Positions 39,244 to 45,378 of a stretch of 64,000 nt of DNA are shown here, piece after piece. A program made the translations under genes and the position numbers. Position 1 is the stretch's first letter, and the number at the start of each line of letters is the position of its first letter. The notes under the pieces were generated by a model. The model was not told where the DNA came from and did not search any database. It was given only the letters and a program-made list of their open reading frames with translations. The stretch is from Escherichia phage EC.W14-3. The stretch lies in sequence record PP496998.1. One strand, given 5' to 3'.

Positions 39244-40785
39244 TTAGTAACTCTGATTCCATCTGCTTACGTTTGCCTCATACAGAGAAGCACTTCCGTA
39301 GCTAACGTCATGCTTAGAGCGACCACGATGTGTAACAGAGCACGCTGAATAGCGCATTGCATCCATTAAGTCATCATGTTCTTTAATAATCTTACCAACC
39401 TTACGGTGATATCTAGCTTTCTCTTCGAATAGCTTAGCATTAGCGGCTGTGTTAAAGATTTTAAAGCGTCCACTCATCATTCTTTCTCGGATATCTGTGA
39501 TTCCCGGTTCTACAAAGAAGTTCTTTTTACCATCCATTCCAATTTTGTTGTAGAAGGTCTCACTCTGTACGTTAACTCCTGCATTCTTATAGAATTGAGC
39601 AACAGATGAGCCACTACCTTTCTCAATATTGTCCGCATCGTGCGGTAGGATGACAGGAATCCACTGACCACGACCATTAATAGCTGGAGCATGATACACT
39701 GGAGTAAAGCCACCTTCTTTATATGAGTCGTAAACATAGATAGTATCCGTGTTTGCATCGTAAGCTGTCCAAACAGCAGCAGTTGGGTGATCAATACCAA
39801 TATCAATTGCACAGACACGTTTCCACGTATCAGGAATTTCGAATGGTTCACATTTAATTGTGTCATCCGATACATCATAAATCAAACCACTTCCTAACAA
39901 TGGCATACCTTTCGAACGCATCTCTAACTGCCACGCTGGAATACCTTCAGTCATATCTTTTATATCTTGGTCAGTGATATGTCCACCTAGGTCTGCATGA
40001 GCATCCCACCAAGAAGCGTTCTGGAAATATAGAGAACCTGTGTTCTCATCCCCTTCGCCTTTCATAAATTTATCTACCAGTTCAGTTAAACCGTTCTCTG
40101 GTGTAGCTGTAATTGTAACTAGACCTTTAGTTGTGAGTGTACGTGTGACGCACTGTGCGAATATAGCCATAGACTCGTATGGATCTTCTTCGTCTAACCA
40201 AATGTAGTCAACTGTTGCACCCATCAATGTGTGTTCACCCTGTTGGGTTGAACGGAATTCTAATGTACTTAAACCGTCAAACTCCCCTCTCTCATTTTGA
40301 TGTTTGATTTGTACGATTTGAAGTTTGTTACCATCTCGTTCTATCGTGTCAATGACGATAGCATCACGAGGAATGACACCTGTCCCCAATAAGTTTGTAT
40401 CCTTTCCGATAGGTGTACCAAACAATTCCTTTTGCAATACTTTCCTTGTGGAATCCCCTGTAATACCAACTGCCCATGCTAAGATAGGTCTTTTAAATTT
40501 ATATCCTGTCCACCAAGTTGGGTAGCGACCTGTGACATGACAAGCAAACTCGTATGCCTCGCTATAAGATTTACCAACACGGTTCGCTGCACACAAGAAT
40601 CTAAAGCGATGCTTCAATCCTGCTGCATAAAATTTCTTTTGGAAGTCATACGCCTTGAAAGACAAAATCTTATTATACTTCCTCCATTGGTCACGCTCTT
40701 TCAACATATTCAATAGTGCTTTCTTTTCCTCTACACTAAGATTGTTACCAGTTAGAGCTTCATAAATTTGTTTATCTAATGACAT
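39244..40785 (-). CDS. terminase large subunit
   Basis: Walker A-like CAANRVGKSY, Walker B-like IWLDEED, C-terminal nuclease-like region; 513 aa. Confidence 0.75.
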   Translation of the reverse strand: MSLDKQIYEALTGNNLSVEEKKALLNMLKERDQWRKYNKILSFKAYDFQKKFYAAGLKHRFRFLCAANRVGKSYSEAYEFACHVTGRYPTWWTGYKFKRPILAWAVGITGDSTRKVLQKELFGTPIGKDTNLLGTGVIPRDAIVIDTIERDGNKLQIVQIKHQNERGEFDGLSTLEFRSTQQGEHTLMGATVDYIWLDEEDPYESMAIFAQCVTRTLTTKGLVTITATPENGLTELVDKFMKGEGDENTGSLYFQNASWWDAHADLGGHITDQDIKDMTEGIPAWQLEMRSKGMPLLGSGLIYDVSDDTIKCEPFEIPDTWKRVCAIDIGIDHPTAAVWTAYDANTDTIYVYDSYKEGGFTPVYHAPAINGRGQWIPVILPHDADNIEKGSGSSVAQFYKNAGVNVQSETFYNKIGMDGKKNFFVEPGITDIRERMMSGRFKIFNTAANAKLFEEKARYHRKVGKIIKEHDDLMDAMRYSACSVTHRGRSKHDVSYGSASLYEANVSRWNQSY

Positions 40786-40854: not shown

Positions 40855-41328
40855 TTAACTCTCGTCCGCTTCCTCCCCCTTTTCAGCGTCCTCAGAGTTG
40901 TCTTCTTCTGGAGGCATAACGTCGATACCAAGTGCTCCAGTCAAGAAGTCCTTGATTTGTGCATTCAATGATTCTTCGTTGATTACATTCTCTTCCTCAA
41001 TCTTAACTTCAACAGAGGCCGCCTTAGGATATACCAGATCTGCAACTTTTGATGCAGCCTTGAATCTAAGATCAGGTGGAATATTAGGATCTTCGTAAAT
41101 TTGAATTAACACTTCATCAGGAGACAAATGACTTGCAGCAACACGGTCCAACATTAATTGTGTCAGTTTACCTCTACTACCTCTGGGTCGTCCGAATTTA
41201 TTTCCCTTTTGAAACTTCCCATTGCTTGGGTTCATACCACGGCCTTCAAGTTCTTCCGTTACTCCGGGTAATCTTCCTGTAATCTCAGCTACCTGTGCAG
41301 GCGTGAGTTCTCCGTTTTCTCCAAACAT
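40855..41328 (-). CDS. terminase small subunit (putative)
   Basis: 157 aa immediately upstream of the large terminase; basic central region, acidic tail. Confidence 0.4.
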   Translation of the reverse strand: MFGENGELTPAQVAEITGRLPGVTEELEGRGMNPSNGKFQKGNKFGRPRGSRGKLTQLMLDRVAASHLSPDEVLIQIYEDPNIPPDLRFKAASKVADLVYPKAASVEVKIEEENVINEESLNAQIKDFLTGALGIDVMPPEEDNSEDAEKGEEADES

Positions 41329-41384
41329 TTTATACTCCTTCTACATTATCAACAACACAAAAAGCCTCCCAACGGAGGCAAATA

Positions 41385-42017
41385 TTACTTACAATCACCA
41401 ACGGACAGGTTAAACATCTTACCTAGAGCAATCGTCTCACCTTCCCACGGAAGTTCTGCACCCTTCTCTTCCTCTAAAAGAATAGAGCCGTCGACCAAAA
41501 ATTTTTCGTAGTCTCGCAGTGCGTCGTCTACTAGCTCACTCTTGTGAATCCATGTAATTGTTTCTGTACCATCCTCTTCGATTCTAACATCACGATGCCA
41601 TTCATCTTTGGAGGTAATATAATCATGGAGCATTTCGTATTCAGCTTCTTCAATCATCTCAATCATTGCACGAGCATAGTCAGGGAGGTGATCATGTTTA
41701 GTAGATTCGTATTCAACTACTTCCAGAGTAGAAGGCTTAGCCCGTGCAACTTCTTCAAGTACTTTTGAGCGATCTTTGTAGTAGTTCTCATATTTATCAC
41801 CAATAGTACCGACTTGAAGTCCACGGTATTGTTCTACTAAACTCATCATATCTTTCTTCTCCGTAATAGTTGGTTTAAGAATACTTCCACTATATAAATC
41901 TTGTACAGCCAATCCTGAAACATTTCCCATAGTTTCTAAATGCTGTAAGCTACAACCAGATCGACATAGCTGTGAATTGTAATCGTTAAGGTCCATCGCT
42001 TGGATTAAATTATTCAT
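41385..42017 (-). CDS. hypothetical protein
   Basis: start at MNNLIQ in an ATGAATAA overlap with the upstream gene. Confidence 0.4.
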   Translation of the reverse strand: MNNLIQAMDLNDYNSQLCRSGCSLQHLETMGNVSGLAVQDLYSGSILKPTITEKKDMMSLVEQYRGLQVGTIGDKYENYYKDRSKVLEEVARAKPSTLEVVEYESTKHDHLPDYARAMIEMIEEAEYEMLHDYITSKDEWHRDVRIEEDGTETITWIHKSELVDDALRDYEKFLVDGSILLEEEKGAELPWEGETIALGKMFNLSVGDCK

Positions 42018-42264
42018 TTGTATCTCCCTTGCTGTAATCTTTGTATGTTTCTTTTCTGTAAGTGCGGAATGCTCTGAAGAAGAGCCAACCAAAACTACTT
42101 ACATCAATTGTAATATCGAAATCTGTTTCATCATCTAAATCAACAAGACGGCCTAAGCAAGTAGCTTCCATCCCTTCTTCAGAGTCACTGTTGACCACGA
42201 AAGCGTATGTCTCCGTTCTGAACCGAGGCACCATCTCTGATAAAAAGTCTAGTACTAAATTCAT
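42010..42264 (-). CDS. small acidic hypothetical protein, first gene of the minus-strand block
   Basis: GAGGAG SD upstream of ATG; translationally coupled to the next gene. Confidence 0.35.
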   Translation of the reverse strand: MNLVLDFLSEMVPRFRTETYAFVVNSDSEEGMEATCLGRLVDLDDETDFDITIDVSSFGWLFFRAFRTYRKETYKDYSKGDTNE

Positions 42265-42269
42265 AATTC

Positions 42270-43500
42270 TTCTCCTCTGAATAAGAGTATAAAGGGCACA
42301 TCATAAGACCTACCCGTAAAGGCCACCTCACATTAACACCCGTGAGAATACCTGTATTCATTTTCGTAGTCTTCTTCAGAGAAGCTACCGTATTCATCTT
42401 CTGTCATACATCCCTCTGATAAAGTTAAGACATAAAGGGGACGTCATCTTTGATGACTACTTCACATTAAGGCACCCCCATAAAGGCCATGTCACGTTAA
42501 GGCCTATCCATCCATGTGCTGTGTTTAAGCTTACCACATTTACTACATCTCCAAGTGGACTTATAAAGGGTGTGAACTCTTTCATCCCCGTAAGCTTTGC
42601 GTATCCGATAGTACTCATGATCACATTTGAATTGCTTAATGATTAACTTAATTTTCCACATAAGTTCTCTTTCAACCTTATATATAAGAGTTTAAAATAC
42701 AGATTTATAAAAAATAAAGATGTATATATCTGTTTAAAATTCTGATTTGACCGAGTGGGGCTAGCCGCTCGCCGCGCGTTTCCTAAAAGGGGGGAGTCCT
42801 CATTTAAAAAAGGGTTATTGGCAATGCCTTTACACCTCCTTCCACGTTCCAACCTTTCCCCGTGCCTACTCCCCGTTATTCTTTCCCCGTGTATACCATC
42901 CTATTCATTAGCTACCCGTTTATTTAGTACCCCTTTAGAGAGTGAGAGAAAGGCTATACTCTGATAAGGCACAATCATAACAGGTCTAATAATACCGTAT
43001 TGTTACCGTTCAGCTCCCCATAGTTTGAATGTAAATAGTTTCAATAGTAATGATTATGAGTGCAATAATGATGTATGTATTAATTAAGTGGATGATTGTA
43101 ATTCTTTTAATAATTGCTTTTATTCTTTTCTTTTTCAGCGTGCCTTTGTGAGCGTAGCGAACGTCTTTGATGTTTGAGTTATACAATTATTTAAGTGGTA
43201 TATTATTACCGCACTATCTTGCTATGTTTCCCCGTGGTCTACCCTGCGGTTGTATGCTCCCCGTGTCCTGGTCTGTTGGTCTGCTACCCGTAGCACCAGC
43301 GTAACACCCGTAGGATTAGTGTTATAAAGTAACAATAGCTAGTAAGCTGATTCTCTGAGTATGGAAGGTTTAGTAAATTAAATTCCTTTAGTTTTCAGTG
43401 AGTTATAAGAAAGTTAGAAAATAAATGGTTGACAGGTTTTTCCTTTATTATATAGTTGCGATTGTAATTTGTAGTTTTCATCAACCATAAGGAATATCAA
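42270..43500. promoter_or_regulatory. ORF-free divergent control region with two families of short direct repeats
   Basis: three repeats of TAAAGGCCAC..CACATTAA and about eight CCCCGT(G)/ACCCGT motifs; divergent genes on both sides. Confidence 0.45.
43429..43457 (+). promoter_or_regulatory. sigma70-type promoter
   Basis: TTGACA, 16-17 nt spacer, TATAGT, about 45 nt upstream of the first early ORF. Confidence 0.5.
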
Positions 43501-44373
43501 ATGTCTAAAGTAGCAATTAACCACTTGAACAAAGCAAACGAAAGCCTTTCCTCTTTAGGCTTAACCGTTGGTAGTCCTGATGCGTGGATGGAAAACGAAA
43601 GCGCACGTAAAGGATTCAAAAACTCTGTAATGCTGGCTTGCTTGATCATTAATTCTACTGCGAACGCCTTACAGTGTGAAGATGAAAGCACGTTCAAAGA
43701 GAATGGCTTTACCGATATACAGGACGCTATCAACTGTTACATTCAGGCAAATTTGGATAGCTGGAATCAGAAAGATTGGCCTGAGTCATGCCGTGATGTG
43801 AAAGCTGAATTATCCCGCTTGTCTGTCATGGTTGAAGCATGGAACAAGAAAAACAAGAAACAACCAATCAAGCCTACTGTTGCAAGTAAGATTATGAAGT
43901 CTGTTAATCTGGCAAGTTATGCACTGGTTGCAGCTATCGGTGTTAGTGCACTGGTCACGTCTCTTTCTGATAAGGCTATCGCTAGTCCTGCTCCTGCAAC
44001 TGATGCGGCTAGTGTCTTCTCTAGTTCCATCAATAAGGGTTGGATGATTTGCAACGGTGCGGATAGTGACGGCAATAATATCGTGCTAAAGATGAAATTT
44101 AGCAACGTAACAAATGATGGAGTTCTCTTTCAATCTAAAACGTTAGATAATCAGCCTAACAGTGATCTAGTTCTCAAGCGTACTGATAACGATGCGGATA
44201 TGGTGACATTTGGCACTGTACAACGTTATGAAGACGTTAAAGCTGTAACCAACCTAGTGAGCTATGGCCCGATCAATGAGTCGATGATCGCCACCACGGT
44301 TTACAATAACGCTGATAATGCTGTTTATACTGTTCACGTTAATTTAGCCAACTGCATTAAGGCTAGTAAGTAA
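43501..44373 (+). CDS. early protein with one central TM segment
   Basis: 290 aa; hydrophobic SVNLASYALVAAIGVSALVTSL. Confidence 0.45.
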   Translation: MSKVAINHLNKANESLSSLGLTVGSPDAWMENESARKGFKNSVMLACLIINSTANALQCEDESTFKENGFTDIQDAINCYIQANLDSWNQKDWPESCRDVKAELSRLSVMVEAWNKKNKKQPIKPTVASKIMKSVNLASYALVAAIGVSALVTSLSDKAIASPAPATDAASVFSSSINKGWMICNGADSDGNNIVLKMKFSNVTNDGVLFQSKTLDNQPNSDLVLKRTDNDADMVTFGTVQRYEDVKAVTNLVSYGPINESMIATTVYNNADNAVYTVHVNLANCIKASK

Positions 44374-45000: not shown

Positions 45001-45378
45001 GTGATTATTATCATGGGTATTATCAAATTTGTAGTAAAAGTATTCGTGGGCTTCTTCCTTGTCGTTCTCCTGCTGGGTGTGCTCCTATCGGCTATGGGTA
45101 GCGTTAAGGCTGCAACATTCTCCCCTGCTACGGTGGAAGGTTTACAGTGCACCTATTTGATAGAAAATTATGATACCGGTAAAAAGTCACCTAAAGTTAT
45201 TATTTTGCATGTAAATGATTTCGATCATGTGCAATCAGATAGTAAAACTATTCTACTGGTAAATGAAACTACTGGTAAACAAATCACGGTCGATCACTTG
45301 ATGCGCTCATCGTTAACGCTCTTTGATGAGTCCATGAATGAAATGGCATCCGGTAATGGTCAATGTGTAAATCCATAG
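45001..45378 (+). CDS. secreted or membrane early protein
   Basis: N-terminal signal/TM FVVKVFVGFFLVVLLLGVLLSAMG. Confidence 0.4.
   Translation: MIIIMGIIKFVVKVFVGFFLVVLLLGVLLSAMGSVKAATFSPATVEGLQCTYLIENYDTGKKSPKVIILHVNDFDHVQSDSKTILLVNETTGKQITVDHLMRSSLTLFDESMNEMASGNGQCVNP

What the first reader, a model, noticed from the sequence alone, without database searches (positions are those of the whole stretch)
42270..43500. Divergent control region with iteron-like direct repeats
About 1.2 kb without ORFs between the first leftward gene (42264) and the first rightward early gene (43501). It has three copies of a roughly 25-bp unit (TAAAGGCCAC..CACATTAAC/GGC) at 42310..42500 and about eight C-rich hexamers (TTTCCCCGTG, CTCCCCGT, CTACCCGT, ACACCCGTAGG) in two clusters (42860..42930, 43225..43320), separated by AT-rich DNA. 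Candidate functions are a replication origin, a packaging/terminal-repeat region, or an operator array.
Basis: seen in the sequence. Interest (0 to 1): 0.5.

Follow-up and report, generated by a model that had tools for sequence, protein, structure and literature searches.

The report
Phage genome-end junction with oriented repeats
This stretch is where the two ends of a phiEco32-like (Kuravirus) coliphage genome meet in the assembly: it holds the known 193-bp terminal repeat, plus a conserved one-directional array of short C-rich motifs that looks like the end-repeat arrays of phage T7 and probably guides DNA packaging.

Summary
The repeats are real; the "ORF-free divergent control region" reading is only partly right. 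The window is a Kuravirus, 100% identical to Escherichia phage EC.W2-6, in reverse orientation to phiEco32. The mapped 193-bp direct terminal repeat (DTR) of phiEco32 and YF01 aligns to window 42763-42955, so the interval is the collapsed genome-end (concatemer) junction.

- **C-rich motif.** YMCCCGT occurs 11 times on the + strand in 42270-43500 and never on the - strand. That is 3 copies left of the DTR, 4 inside and 4 right of it. About 0.09 are expected from the rest of the window.
- **Conservation.** Order, spacing (13/14/29 bp) and orientation are the same in 13 relatives. In the DTR array 27 of 28 core positions are invariant, against 53% of spacer positions.
- **Motif drift.** More distant relatives keep the architecture but change the word: SU7 TACCCAT, GAP52 CYTCAAT, Vp_R1 CTATCATT. 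T7, SP6 and phiKMV also have oriented arrays at their ends.
- **The ~25-bp units.** They are real, begin with the same C-rich word, and sit at cassette (indel) boundaries between small left-end genes. One of those genes is real (42497-42661).

Best reading: a protein-binding lattice for terminase recognition and end processing, next to leading-end early promoters. An origin role is not excluded. This is a new member of a known kind, of moderate interest.

The parts
42289..42503 (+). Left-flank composite repeat units. Coordinates: 42289-42307 partial, 42310-42343, 42432-42473 with an optional hairpin insert at 42443-42457, and 42473-42503. Each unit is [C-rich word YMCCC(G/A)T] + AAAGGSC + N + TCAYRTTAA. 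The units lie between small leftward ORFs, including a possible 24-aa ORF at 42333-42407 (-).
   Evidence: Repeat families D1, D2 and D15. Enrichment counts. Coordinates. In the 14-genome alignment the indels and cassette swaps begin or end at these units, and the 18-bp hairpin insert sits in different units in different phages.
42497..42661 (-). Small gene, homolog of phiEco32 gp1. It encodes 54 aa with a CxH...CxxC zinc-ribbon-like pattern. It contains one C-rich motif copy (42585) and one TAAAGG copy (42561-42574).
   Evidence: ORF list. PHROG 7696 match, E = 6e-17. Translation. phiEco32 annotation of phi32_1 at the equivalent place.
42662..42762 (-). AT-rich (26% GC) unique leader between gp1 and the DTR. 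The blocks CTTATATATAAGAG (42677-42690) and GTTTAAAATTCTGATTTGAC (42732-42751) are conserved. It is a candidate weak sigma-70 promoter for the left-end genes. This phage carries a 42-bp duplication here (42681-42748).
   Evidence: Alignment. Repeat D4. GC content. The SU10 supplement predicts a sigma-70 promoter in the homologous sequence. The consensus scan here did not call it.
42763..42955 (.). Single collapsed copy of the 193-bp direct terminal repeat. Both inferred boundaries carry GGCT|A (42759-42763 and 42952-42956). The repeat contains a conserved A/G-run block (42782-42814) and the C-rich array.
   Evidence: phiEco32 bases 1-193 are identical to its last 193 bases, and both ends align to 42763-42955. 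The YF01 annotated DTR maps to the same place. The literature reports DTRs of 192-193 bp across the group. Boundary words.
42840..42934 (+). C-rich array 1, inside the DTR. Strong copies lie at 42857, 42870, 42884 and 42913. Weaker lattice positions lie at 42840 (TTCCACG) and 42928 (TACCCCT). The period is about 14.5 bp. The array is bracketed by inverted CCTTTA words at 42827-42832 and 42932-42937. It is 48% GC with GC skew -0.63.
   Evidence: Spacing of 13, 14, 29 is identical in 13 relatives. 27 of 28 core positions are invariant, against 53% of non-core positions.
42956..43228 (+). AT-rich spacer on the early-gene side of the DTR (31% GC; 21% in 43030-43135). It contains invariant blocks at 43034-43091 (with TGCAATAAT at 43061-43069) and 43187-43219 (with an extended -10-like TGGTATATT at 43196-43204). 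It also holds a T-rich tract, TTCTTTTCTTTTTCAGCGT (43123-43141), that is conserved across two phage families.
   Evidence: Alignment and conservation profile. GC content. The T-rich tract is also found in SU7, GAP52, 7-11 and Vp_R1. Reading these blocks as promoters is inference only: the scan's criteria were not met.
43229..43311 (+). C-rich array 2, lying 274-356 bp inside the early-gene end. Copies lie at 43229, 43258, 43285 and 43305. Most relatives have three copies 29 bp apart. It also carries three TGGTC words.
   Evidence: 71% of core positions are invariant, against 41% of non-core positions.
43429..43456 (+). Strong sigma-70-type early promoter (TTGACA, 16 nt, TATAGT; 11 of 12 matches) for the first rightward early gene (43501-44373).
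   Evidence: Promoter scan. The same sequence is listed as the early promoter upstream of CDS125 in SU10. It is conserved in the alignment.

Best explanation
**What it is (shown, about 0.9 confidence).** The interval is the junction where the two ends of a linear phiEco32-type (Kuravirus) genome were joined by the assembler.
- It holds one copy of the 193-bp DTR (42763-42955).
- To its left are the left-end small genes, followed by the putative small terminase and the large terminase.
- To its right are an AT-rich stretch, early promoters and the first early gene.

**What the repeats do (inferred, about 0.4 confidence).** The C-rich heptamers are an oriented, regularly spaced (about 14.5 or 29 bp) lattice of binding sites for one phage-specific DNA-binding protein. 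The most likely candidate is the terminase recognition subunit, the PaP3-like small-terminase candidate encoded at 40855-41328.
- **Function.** Bound to the replicated concatemer, this lattice would mark the junction. It would also give it a direction and position the large terminase to cut at the two GGCT|A boundaries. Each packaged genome would then end in a full repeat.
- **Array inside the DTR.** It lies 28-115 bp from the end that adjoins the terminase genes. This is the position the cosB R-sites occupy in lambda.
- **Flanking copies.** The left units and the right array would distinguish the two sides of the repeat. The arrays around the T7 terminal repeat may work the same way.
- **Left-flank ~25-bp units.** They carry the same word fused to TAAAGGCC...TCACRTTAA. 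Because they are repeated, they also act as recombination joints that shuffle small gene cassettes.
- **Early-gene side.** The AT-rich DNA and conserved blocks right of the DTR are the early-promoter region of the early-gene end.
For: **Identity**
- The window is 100% identical to Kuravirus EC.W2-6 and EC.W8-1.
- The phiEco32 and YF01 DTRs map to 42763-42955.
- DTRs of 192-193 bp are reported for the whole group.

**Array statistics**
- 11 of the window's 17 + strand copies are here, with 0 on the - strand.

**Selection on the arrays**
- Number, order, spacing and orientation are the same in 13 relatives.
- Motif cores are far more conserved than the spacers between them.

**One factor, co-evolving with its sites**
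- In SU7 the word shifts to TACCCAT in all three zones at once, while the lattice is kept (14-16 and 28-30 bp; 13 copies on one strand, 0 on the other).
- GAP52, 7-11 and Vp_R1 keep the layout with other words.

**Link to ends rather than to genes**
- T7 (CCTAAAG 11:0, inside the repeat and on both flanks), SP6 (CTTAGT 12:0) and phiKMV (CCTGGC 10:1) have oriented arrays at their repeat-bearing ends.

**Terminase nearby**
- A profile of the 40855-41328 protein family has small terminases as its best and third-best solved-structure matches: 7JOQ (E = 0.018) and PaP3 6W7T (E = 0.15). This agrees with the YF01 paper's assignment.
- PaP3 small terminase binds its end sequence specifically, and its authors suggest that repeated sub-sites could be recognised.

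**DNA-level element**
- There is no Rfam match and no stable RNA fold.
Against: - No binding, cleavage or packaging data exist for any Kuravirus. The link between the arrays and terminase rests on position and analogy.
- To my knowledge the function of the T7 arrays is itself not established, so the analogy carries no mechanism with it.
- The small-terminase assignment is weak (E = 0.018-0.15). That protein is 91% identical between Kuravirus and SU7 although the motif differs.
- The right array lies beside a 21%-GC stretch. In GAP52 the same position holds five perfect DnaA boxes, which suits an origin or an entry-control site at least as well.
- The physical ends of this particular phage were inferred by homology, not measured.
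Confidence: 0.4

Rival explanations
1. Replication origin. The two C-rich arrays would be initiator-binding repeats flanking an AT-rich unwinding element (43030-43200). Replication would start near the early-gene end, possibly activated by transcription from the adjacent early promoters, as at the end-proximal secondary origins of T7.
For: - Oriented direct repeats lie on both sides of a 21%-GC stretch.
- A T-rich tract (43123-43141) is conserved in non-coding DNA across two phage families.
- GAP52 carries five perfect DnaA boxes at the position of array 2.
- The cumulative GC-skew minimum falls at 42-43 kb.
- Three TGGTC words, a T7-type primase recognition sequence as I recall it, lie in array 2.
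Against: - Four motif copies lie inside the terminal repeat and three inside or between left-end genes. That placement is not needed for an origin.
- The words are 7-10 bp long at 13-14 or 29-bp spacing. As I recall them, classical iterons are about 17-22 bp long and repeat at roughly 22-bp intervals.
- The adjacent gene is not Rep-like: it has no Pfam match, and its conserved half starts with a signal or membrane-like helix.
- Only one relaxed DnaA box lies in the interval.
- The GC-skew minimum coincides with the switch in gene orientation, so it is not independent evidence.
- As I recall, DnaA boxes also occur at the T5 injection-stop region, so they do not prove an origin.
Confidence: 0.22
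2. Control site at the end that enters the cell first. The arrays would bind a host or virion protein that pauses or meters DNA entry, or that regulates the tandem early promoters, in the manner of a T5-like injection-stop or T7-like stepwise-entry region.
For: - Array 2 lies between a conserved extended -10-like block (43196-43204) and the strong TTGACA promoter (43429-43456).
- The early genes start here, so by inference this end is the one that enters the cell first.
- GAP52 has DnaA boxes at the same position.
Against: - The words do not overlap the promoter hexamers and have no dyad symmetry.
- Copies left of the DTR lie at the opposite physical end of the genome.
- The motif changes between close genera that infect the same host. 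That argues against a host protein.
- No candidate binding protein was identified.
Confidence: 0.13
3. The left-flank ~25-bp units are promoters for the phage sigma factor gp36 (consensus tAATGTAtA), or early promoter/stem-loop cassettes like the PeSL elements of T4-type phages. They would then be unrelated to the C-rich arrays.
For: - On the - strand the units read TTAATGTGA or TTAACGTGA, close to the gp36 consensus.
- They precede small ORFs and sit at cassette boundaries.
- One unit carries a 6-bp stem, 3-nt loop hairpin.
Against: - All listed gp36 promoters have AATGTA; the units have AATGTG or AACGTG.
- The nearest true consensus copy is at 41348 (-), upstream of the putative small-terminase gene and outside the interval.
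- The scan found no sigma-70 promoter in the units.
- The units begin with the same C-rich word as the arrays, and the word changes together with them in SU7.
Confidence: 0.1

Closest known systems
phiEco32 / Kuravirus 193-bp direct terminal repeat (Savalia et al. 2008, as cited in PMC4281155 and PMC9965538)
   Same: The sequence is homologous over the whole repeat, with the same boundaries, the same flanking genes (gp1-gp7 on one side, gp128 on the other) and the same conserved A/G-run block that the SU10 and YF01 papers noted.
   Different: The papers I could read describe the repeat, its length, a variable T-run and a conserved 130-170 segment. They do not describe the oriented C-rich heptamer lattice or its copies on both flanks. 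Savalia 2008 and Pavlova 2012 could not be read here.
Short repeat arrays around the T7 terminal repetition (SRL/SRR, Dunn & Studier 1983, named from my own knowledge; their presence checked here)
   Same: Many copies of a 6-7-bp word, all in one orientation, lie inside the terminal repeat and on both flanks. T7 has a 13-bp period; here it is 13-14 bp. The arrays are followed by AT-rich DNA and tandem early promoters.
   Different: The word is unrelated (CCTAAAG against YMCCCGT) and so is the phage family. T7 transcribes all genes in one direction, whereas here the late genes point away from the junction. The right array here is 274 bp from the repeat rather than abutting it. To my knowledge the T7 function is itself unresolved.
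Lambda cosB (R1-R3 gpNu1 sites) and other small-terminase recognition arrays
   Same: Several short direct repeats lie just inside the genome end that adjoins the terminase genes, close to a defined cut site (positions; general model and established knowledge of lambda cos).
   Different: Lambda makes 12-nt cohesive ends with no terminal repeat. No binding has been shown here, and two cut sites 193 bp apart must be served.
Iteron-type origins of plasmids and phage lambda ori
   Same: Oriented direct repeats lie next to AT-rich DNA.
   Different: The repeat length and phasing differ. There is no adjacent initiator gene. Copies lie inside a terminal repeat and inside coding DNA.

Membership tests
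Kuravirus (phiEco32-type) direct terminal repeat / concatemer junction | Sequence homologous to the mapped 193-bp terminal repeat, with both boundaries matching | tested here: met
   The phiEco32 left and right ends and the YF01 annotated DTR all align to 42763-42955 at 86-91% identity.
Kuravirus (phiEco32-type) direct terminal repeat / concatemer junction | Flanked by the left-end genes (gp1...terminase) on one side and the right-end early genes on the other | tested here: met
   Annotation of phiEco32 and EC.W2-6. TerL lies at 39244-40785 (-) and the gp128 homolog at 43501-44373 (+).
Kuravirus (phiEco32-type) direct terminal repeat / concatemer junction | The repeat is present at both physical ends of virion DNA of this phage | not testable with these tools
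   The window holds one collapsed copy. Confirming this needs read-start analysis or restriction and run-off sequencing of virion DNA.
T7-type terminal short-repeat arrays | Many copies of one short word, all in the same orientation | tested here: met
   11 copies on + and 0 on - in the interval. T7 has 17:0, SP6 12:0 and phiKMV 10:1.
T7-type terminal short-repeat arrays | Copies inside the terminal repeat and on both flanks | tested here: met
   3 copies left, 4 inside and 4 right of 42763-42955. T7 has copies in the repeat, in 175-360 and in 39620-39710.
T7-type terminal short-repeat arrays | Common descent with the T7 arrays (shared word or related phage) | tested here: not met
   The word and the family are different. 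The resemblance is one of architecture only.
Terminase recognition site (cosB / pac-like) | Repeated sites adjacent to the cut site at the end next to the terminase genes | tested here: met
   The array spans 28-115 bp from the boundary at 42955/42956. The putative TerS gene is 1.4 kb away and TerL 2 kb away.
Terminase recognition site (cosB / pac-like) | Specific binding by the small terminase, and a requirement for packaging | not testable with these tools
   Needs EMSA or footprinting and a plasmid-packaging assay.
Iteron-type replication origin | Adjacent AT-rich unwinding region | tested here: met
   43030-43135 is 21% GC.
Iteron-type replication origin | Adjacent gene for an initiator (Rep) protein | tested here: not met
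   The 43501-44373 product has no Pfam match, belongs to PHROGs of unknown function, and its conserved half begins with a hydrophobic signal-like helix.
Iteron-type replication origin | Repeats of about 17-22 bp in helical phase; DnaA boxes | tested here: not met
   The words are 7-10 bp long at 13, 14 or 29 bp spacing. One relaxed DnaA box lies at 42652.
Operator array of the early promoters | Sites overlap the -35/-10 hexamers and/or have dyad symmetry | tested here: not met
   The promoter is at 43429-43456 and the arrays end at 43311. All copies are direct, and no inverted partner was found.
gp36 (phage sigma) promoters | AATGTA core centred near -11.5 | tested here: not met
   No TAATGTA lies in 42270-43500. 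The units have AATGTG or AACGTG. The nearest true copy is at 41348 (-).

The most novel reading that the evidence does not exclude
Oriented short-word lattices in and around short direct terminal repeats may be a general "address code" shared by unrelated phages.
- They occur in Gordonclarkvirinae, Grimontviridae and Autographiviridae.
- The word would co-evolve with a lineage-specific recognition protein. It would set packaging specificity between co-infecting relatives.
- It might also couple end-proximal replication to end cutting.
- If so, Kuravirus and SU7 would be a natural swap experiment: the same lattice with CCCCGT against TACCCAT. That pair could finally assign a function to the long-unexplained T7 arrays.
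Probability: 0.25. Interest if true: 0.55.

Novelty: new member of a known kind. Interest (0 to 1): 0.35.

Why it matters
- **Practical.** The assembly is permuted. The true genome ends lie at about 42763 and 42955, and annotation should start there.
- **Biological.** The work defines a conserved, testable candidate for the packaging and end-processing signal of a therapeutic-phage genus (Kuravirus), for which no such signal has been described in the papers I could read.
- **Comparative.** The same architecture with different words appears in two related phage families and in T7-like phages. This suggests a general requirement of phages with short terminal repeats. It also offers natural variants, such as Kuravirus against SU7, with which to test what such arrays do.

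Tried and rejected
- **RNA element.** No Rfam match at E <= 1. RNA folds of the units and arrays are no better than shuffles, with z from -2.0 to +0.4.
- **Rep-like initiator next to the arrays.** The first early gene has no Pfam domain. Its homologs occur only in Kuravirus-like phages, and its conserved half starts with a signal-like helix.
- **gp36 promoters in the units.** The AATGTA core is absent.
- **Sigma-70 promoters in the units.** None was called.
- **A satellite or plasmid carrying the junction**, which would have pointed to a packaging signal. There is no match in 20,395 E. coli records or 72,556 plasmids. An exact-word scan of viral contigs found only Kuravirus contigs.
- **Small-terminase divergence tracking the motif change.** The protein is 91% identical between Kuravirus and SU7, so this is uninformative.
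- **The PaP3 cos 20-mer in the related LUZ24 junction.** Absent, and LUZ24 shows only a loose GATACCC repetition.
- **Key papers.** Savalia 2008 and Pavlova 2012 are not held. Literature searches on the function of the T7 arrays found nothing usable.
Full report
**What the window is**

The interval 42200-43560 is 100% identical to Escherichia phages EC.W2-6 and EC.W8-1. It is 81-95% identical to the other Kuravirus (phiEco32-like) podophages listed among 93 matching records; 17 records match over at least 80% of its length. The window runs in the opposite orientation to the phiEco32 record and is circularly permuted. Terminase large subunit lies at 39244-40785 on the - strand. The first right-end early gene, the homolog of phi32_128, lies at 43501-44373 on the + strand.

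**Where the genome ends are**

- The first 193 bases of the phiEco32 record equal its last 193.
- Its reverse-complemented left end aligns to window 42009-42955.
- Its reverse-complemented right end aligns to 42763-43662.
- The "direct terminal repeat" annotated in phage YF01 aligns to 42763-42955.

The literature states that the phiEco32 repeat was mapped by restriction analysis, primer walking and subcloning. It also states that SU10, Paul and YF01 have 193-bp repeats with sharp read drop-offs, and that 30 phages of the group carry 192-193-bp repeats. The finding's interval is therefore the collapsed genome-end (concatemer) junction.

The "leftward" and "rightward" genes are neighbours only on the circular map or in a concatemer. 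Both inferred boundaries carry the word GGCT|A (42759-42763 and 42952-42956).

**Check of the observation**

*C-rich words.* The pattern YMCCCGT matches 20 times in the window, against 11 expected. Eleven matches lie in 42270-43500, all on the + strand:

| Zone | Positions |
|---|---|
| Left of the repeat | 42311, 42337, 42585 |
| Inside the repeat | 42857, 42870, 42884, 42913 |
| Right of the repeat | 43229, 43258, 43285, 43305 |

The rest of the window predicts 0.09 copies for such an interval. Dinucleotide shuffles of the interval give a mean of 0.43 and at most 4. With two weaker copies (42840, 42928), the array inside the repeat forms a lattice of about 14.5 bp. The right array has a 29-bp period in most relatives.

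*The ~25-bp units.* These are also real and enriched.

*The "no ORFs" claim.* This does not hold for the left third. 42497-42661 (-) encodes a 54-aa CxH...CxxC protein that matches PHROG 7696 (E = 6e-17) and corresponds to phiEco32 gp1. Relatives annotate further tiny CDSs there.

**Conservation**

In 13 related genomes the motif copies have the same order and orientation, with none on the other strand. The spacing inside the repeat (13, 14, 29 bp) is invariant.

| Array | Motif-core positions invariant (14 genomes) | Other positions invariant |
|---|---|---|
| Inside the repeat | 27 of 28 | 53% |
| Right array | 71% | 41% |

 Other invariant non-coding blocks are listed below:

- 42782-42814, an A/G-run block noted by the SU10 and YF01 papers
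- 43034-43091
- 43187-43219, which contains an extended -10-like TGGTATATT
- the leader next to gp1

**More distant relatives keep the plan but change the word**

- **SU7** (Suseptimavirus; TerL 94% identical). It has 13 copies of Y[ACT]CCC[GA]T, mostly TACCCAT, all on one strand. They lie in the left zone, in the repeat homolog (spacing 15, 28, 29) and in the right array (14, 16, 30, 28). A word change that affects all three zones together, with the lattice preserved, points to one co-evolving binding factor.
- **GAP52** (Grimontviridae; TerL 60% identical). An oriented CYTCAAT array lies between GGGCTAGC and AAAGGCTATAC, the same boundary words as here. It is followed by the T-rich tract and then five perfect DnaA boxes within about 190 bp.
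- **Vp_R1 and 7-11.** Vp_R1 has about a dozen CTATCATT copies at 11-13-bp spacing. 7-11 has TATAACATC and CCACACG repeats. Both carry the A/G-run block, and the T-rich tract recurs in recognisable, divergent form: CTTTTCAG in 7-11, only a looser TTTCTTTCAG in Vp_R1, where the exact-word scan found none.
- **Unrelated phages with terminal repeats.** The same kind of array appears at the end of T7 (CCTAAAG 11:0, with copies in the repeat, in 175-360 and left of the right-hand repeat), SP6 (CTTAGT 12:0) and phiKMV (CCTGGC 10:1). N4 shows none.

**The left-flank units**

Each unit begins with the C-rich word fused to AAAGGSC...TCAYRTTAA, for example CTACCCGTAAAGGCCACCTCACATTAA. In the alignment, cassette-sized insertions and deletions start or end at these units:

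- a 90-bp module is missing in Bas91, SR02, SGF2 and one IMG/VR contig;
- an extra module sits beside the first unit in SGF2, and another begins inside the last unit (after 42494).

A 65-bp extra module in phiEco32 lies between units rather than at one. An 18-bp hairpin insert also sits in different units in different phages. Whatever else they do, the units behave as recombination joints between tiny genes.

They are not gp36 promoters. Every listed gp36 promoter has AATGTA, the units have AATGTG or AACGTG, and the true late promoter TGTTGATAATGTAGAAGG is at 41348 (-). No sigma-70 promoter is called in them either.

**Mechanism**

*Shown.* The interval holds the terminal repeat, flanked by small left-end genes and by the early-gene end. 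That end carries a strong TTGACA-16-TATAGT promoter at 43429-43456.

*Inferred.* The words are a directional lattice of protein-binding sites. I favour terminase recognition, for four reasons:

1. The arrays travel with terminal repeats across unrelated phages, not with any gene.
2. Four copies lie between the two cut sites, 28-115 bp from the end that adjoins the terminase genes. This is the place of the cosB R-sites in lambda.
3. A one-directional array on both flanks can tell the two sides of the repeat apart. A mechanism that must cut twice and duplicate the repeat needs that information.
4. The gene upstream of TerL (40855-41328) is a weak but consistent match to PaP3-type small terminases: 7JOQ at E = 0.018 and 6W7T at E = 0.15. 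The same assignment is made in the YF01 paper. PaP3 small terminase is a nonamer with nine helix-turn-helix motifs that binds its end sequence specifically.

I put this at about 0.4.

**Rivals**

- **Origin (about 0.22).** The arrays flank a 21%-GC stretch that holds a T-rich tract conserved across families. GAP52 has DnaA boxes where array 2 lies here. Against it, the repeat-internal and left-flank copies are unexplained, the adjacent gene is not Rep-like, and the GC-skew minimum coincides with the switch in gene direction.
- **Entry or early-transcription control site (about 0.13).** This is possible for array 2 only.
- **Left units as separate promoter cassettes (about 0.1).**
- **RNA-level roles.** Not supported.

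**Comparison and novelty**

The terminal repeat itself is already known for this genus. In the papers I could read, the oriented C-rich lattice and its flank copies are not described. Savalia 2008 and Pavlova 2012 were not available. In kind, the lattice matches the short-repeat arrays around the T7 terminal repetition. That is a resemblance of architecture, not of descent, and to my knowledge the T7 arrays themselves have no established function. I therefore file this as a new member of a known kind, of moderate interest.

Its value lies in three things. It gives the correct genome ends for annotation. It defines a packaging-signal candidate for a phage-therapy genus. It also offers natural word variants, Kuravirus against SU7, that make the function of such arrays testable.

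Noticed in passing
L021 (GAP52, JN882286) about 435-631; array about 982-1348; T-rich tract about 818-839: Cronobacter phage GAP52 has five perfect DnaA boxes (TTATCCACA) within about 190 bp of its 1.7-kb non-coding start. They lie next to a T-rich tract and an oriented CYTCAAT array, at the position of the right C-rich array of Kuravirus.
   Followed up: partly
window 43123-43141; also SU7 (L019/L020), GAP52 (L021), 7-11 (L026), Vp_R1 (L025): A polypyrimidine tract ending in ...CTTTT(T)CAG(C/T)GT recurs in non-coding DNA across Gordonclarkvirinae and Grimontviridae (TerL only about 60% identical). In Vp_R1 it appears only as a looser TTTCTTTCAG. This is unusual for non-coding phage sequence, and its function is unknown.
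   Followed up: partly
window 42759-42763 and 42952-42956: Both inferred terminal-repeat boundaries carry GGCT|A (GGCT|AGC in most relatives). GAP52 has the same words bracketing its array. This is a candidate terminase cut-site word.
   Followed up: partly
window 42681-42748: A 42-bp tandem duplication lies in the leader between gp1 and the terminal repeat. It contains AAAGATGTATATA. Of the 14 genomes aligned it is present only in this phage and in IMGVR_UViG_2597490005.
   Followed up: partly
window 43501-44373: The first early gene is modular. Its C-terminal 163 aa begin with a hydrophobic signal or membrane-like helix (MKSVNLASYALVAAIGVSALV). That module occurs alone as the first early gene in the FH3, 172-1 and MN05-type phages. 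No Pfam domain matches.
   Followed up: partly
window 45001-45378: A 125-aa early gene is annotated "terminase" in GenBank and in PHROG 13168. It has no Pfam support and sits far from the packaging genes, so the name is probably inherited rather than earned.
   Followed up: no
window 41348 (- strand): A consensus gp36 late promoter (TGTTGATAATGTAGAAGGAG) lies directly upstream of the putative small-terminase gene (40855-41328). The genes between it and the terminal repeat (gp1-gp5 homologs) therefore lie upstream of the late promoter, which fits the early class that the SU10 paper gives its first three left-end CDSs.
   Followed up: partly
window 42443-42457; SGF2 (L018) and IMGVR_UViG_3300045988 (L006) at other units: An 18-bp insert carrying a perfect 6-bp stem, 3-nt loop hairpin (GTCATC TTT GATGAC) sits in different TAAAGG units in different phages, as if it moves between copies.
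   Followed up: no
L033 (SP6 1-700), L034 (phiKMV 1-900), L023/L024 (T7 ends): Strictly oriented 6-7-mer arrays occur at the repeat-bearing end of SP6 (CTTAGT 12:0), phiKMV (CCTGGC 10:1) and T7 (CCTAAAG 11:0), but not in the first 700 bp of N4. This may be a general trait of short-terminal-repeat podophages.
   Followed up: partly
window 42333-42407 (- strand): A possible 24-aa very acidic ORF (MTEDEYGSFSEEDYENEYRYSHGC) with a GAGGG ribosome-binding site lies between two repeat units. GenBank instead annotates an overlapping 70-aa ORF (42185-42397) that runs through the repeats and into gp4.
   Followed up: no
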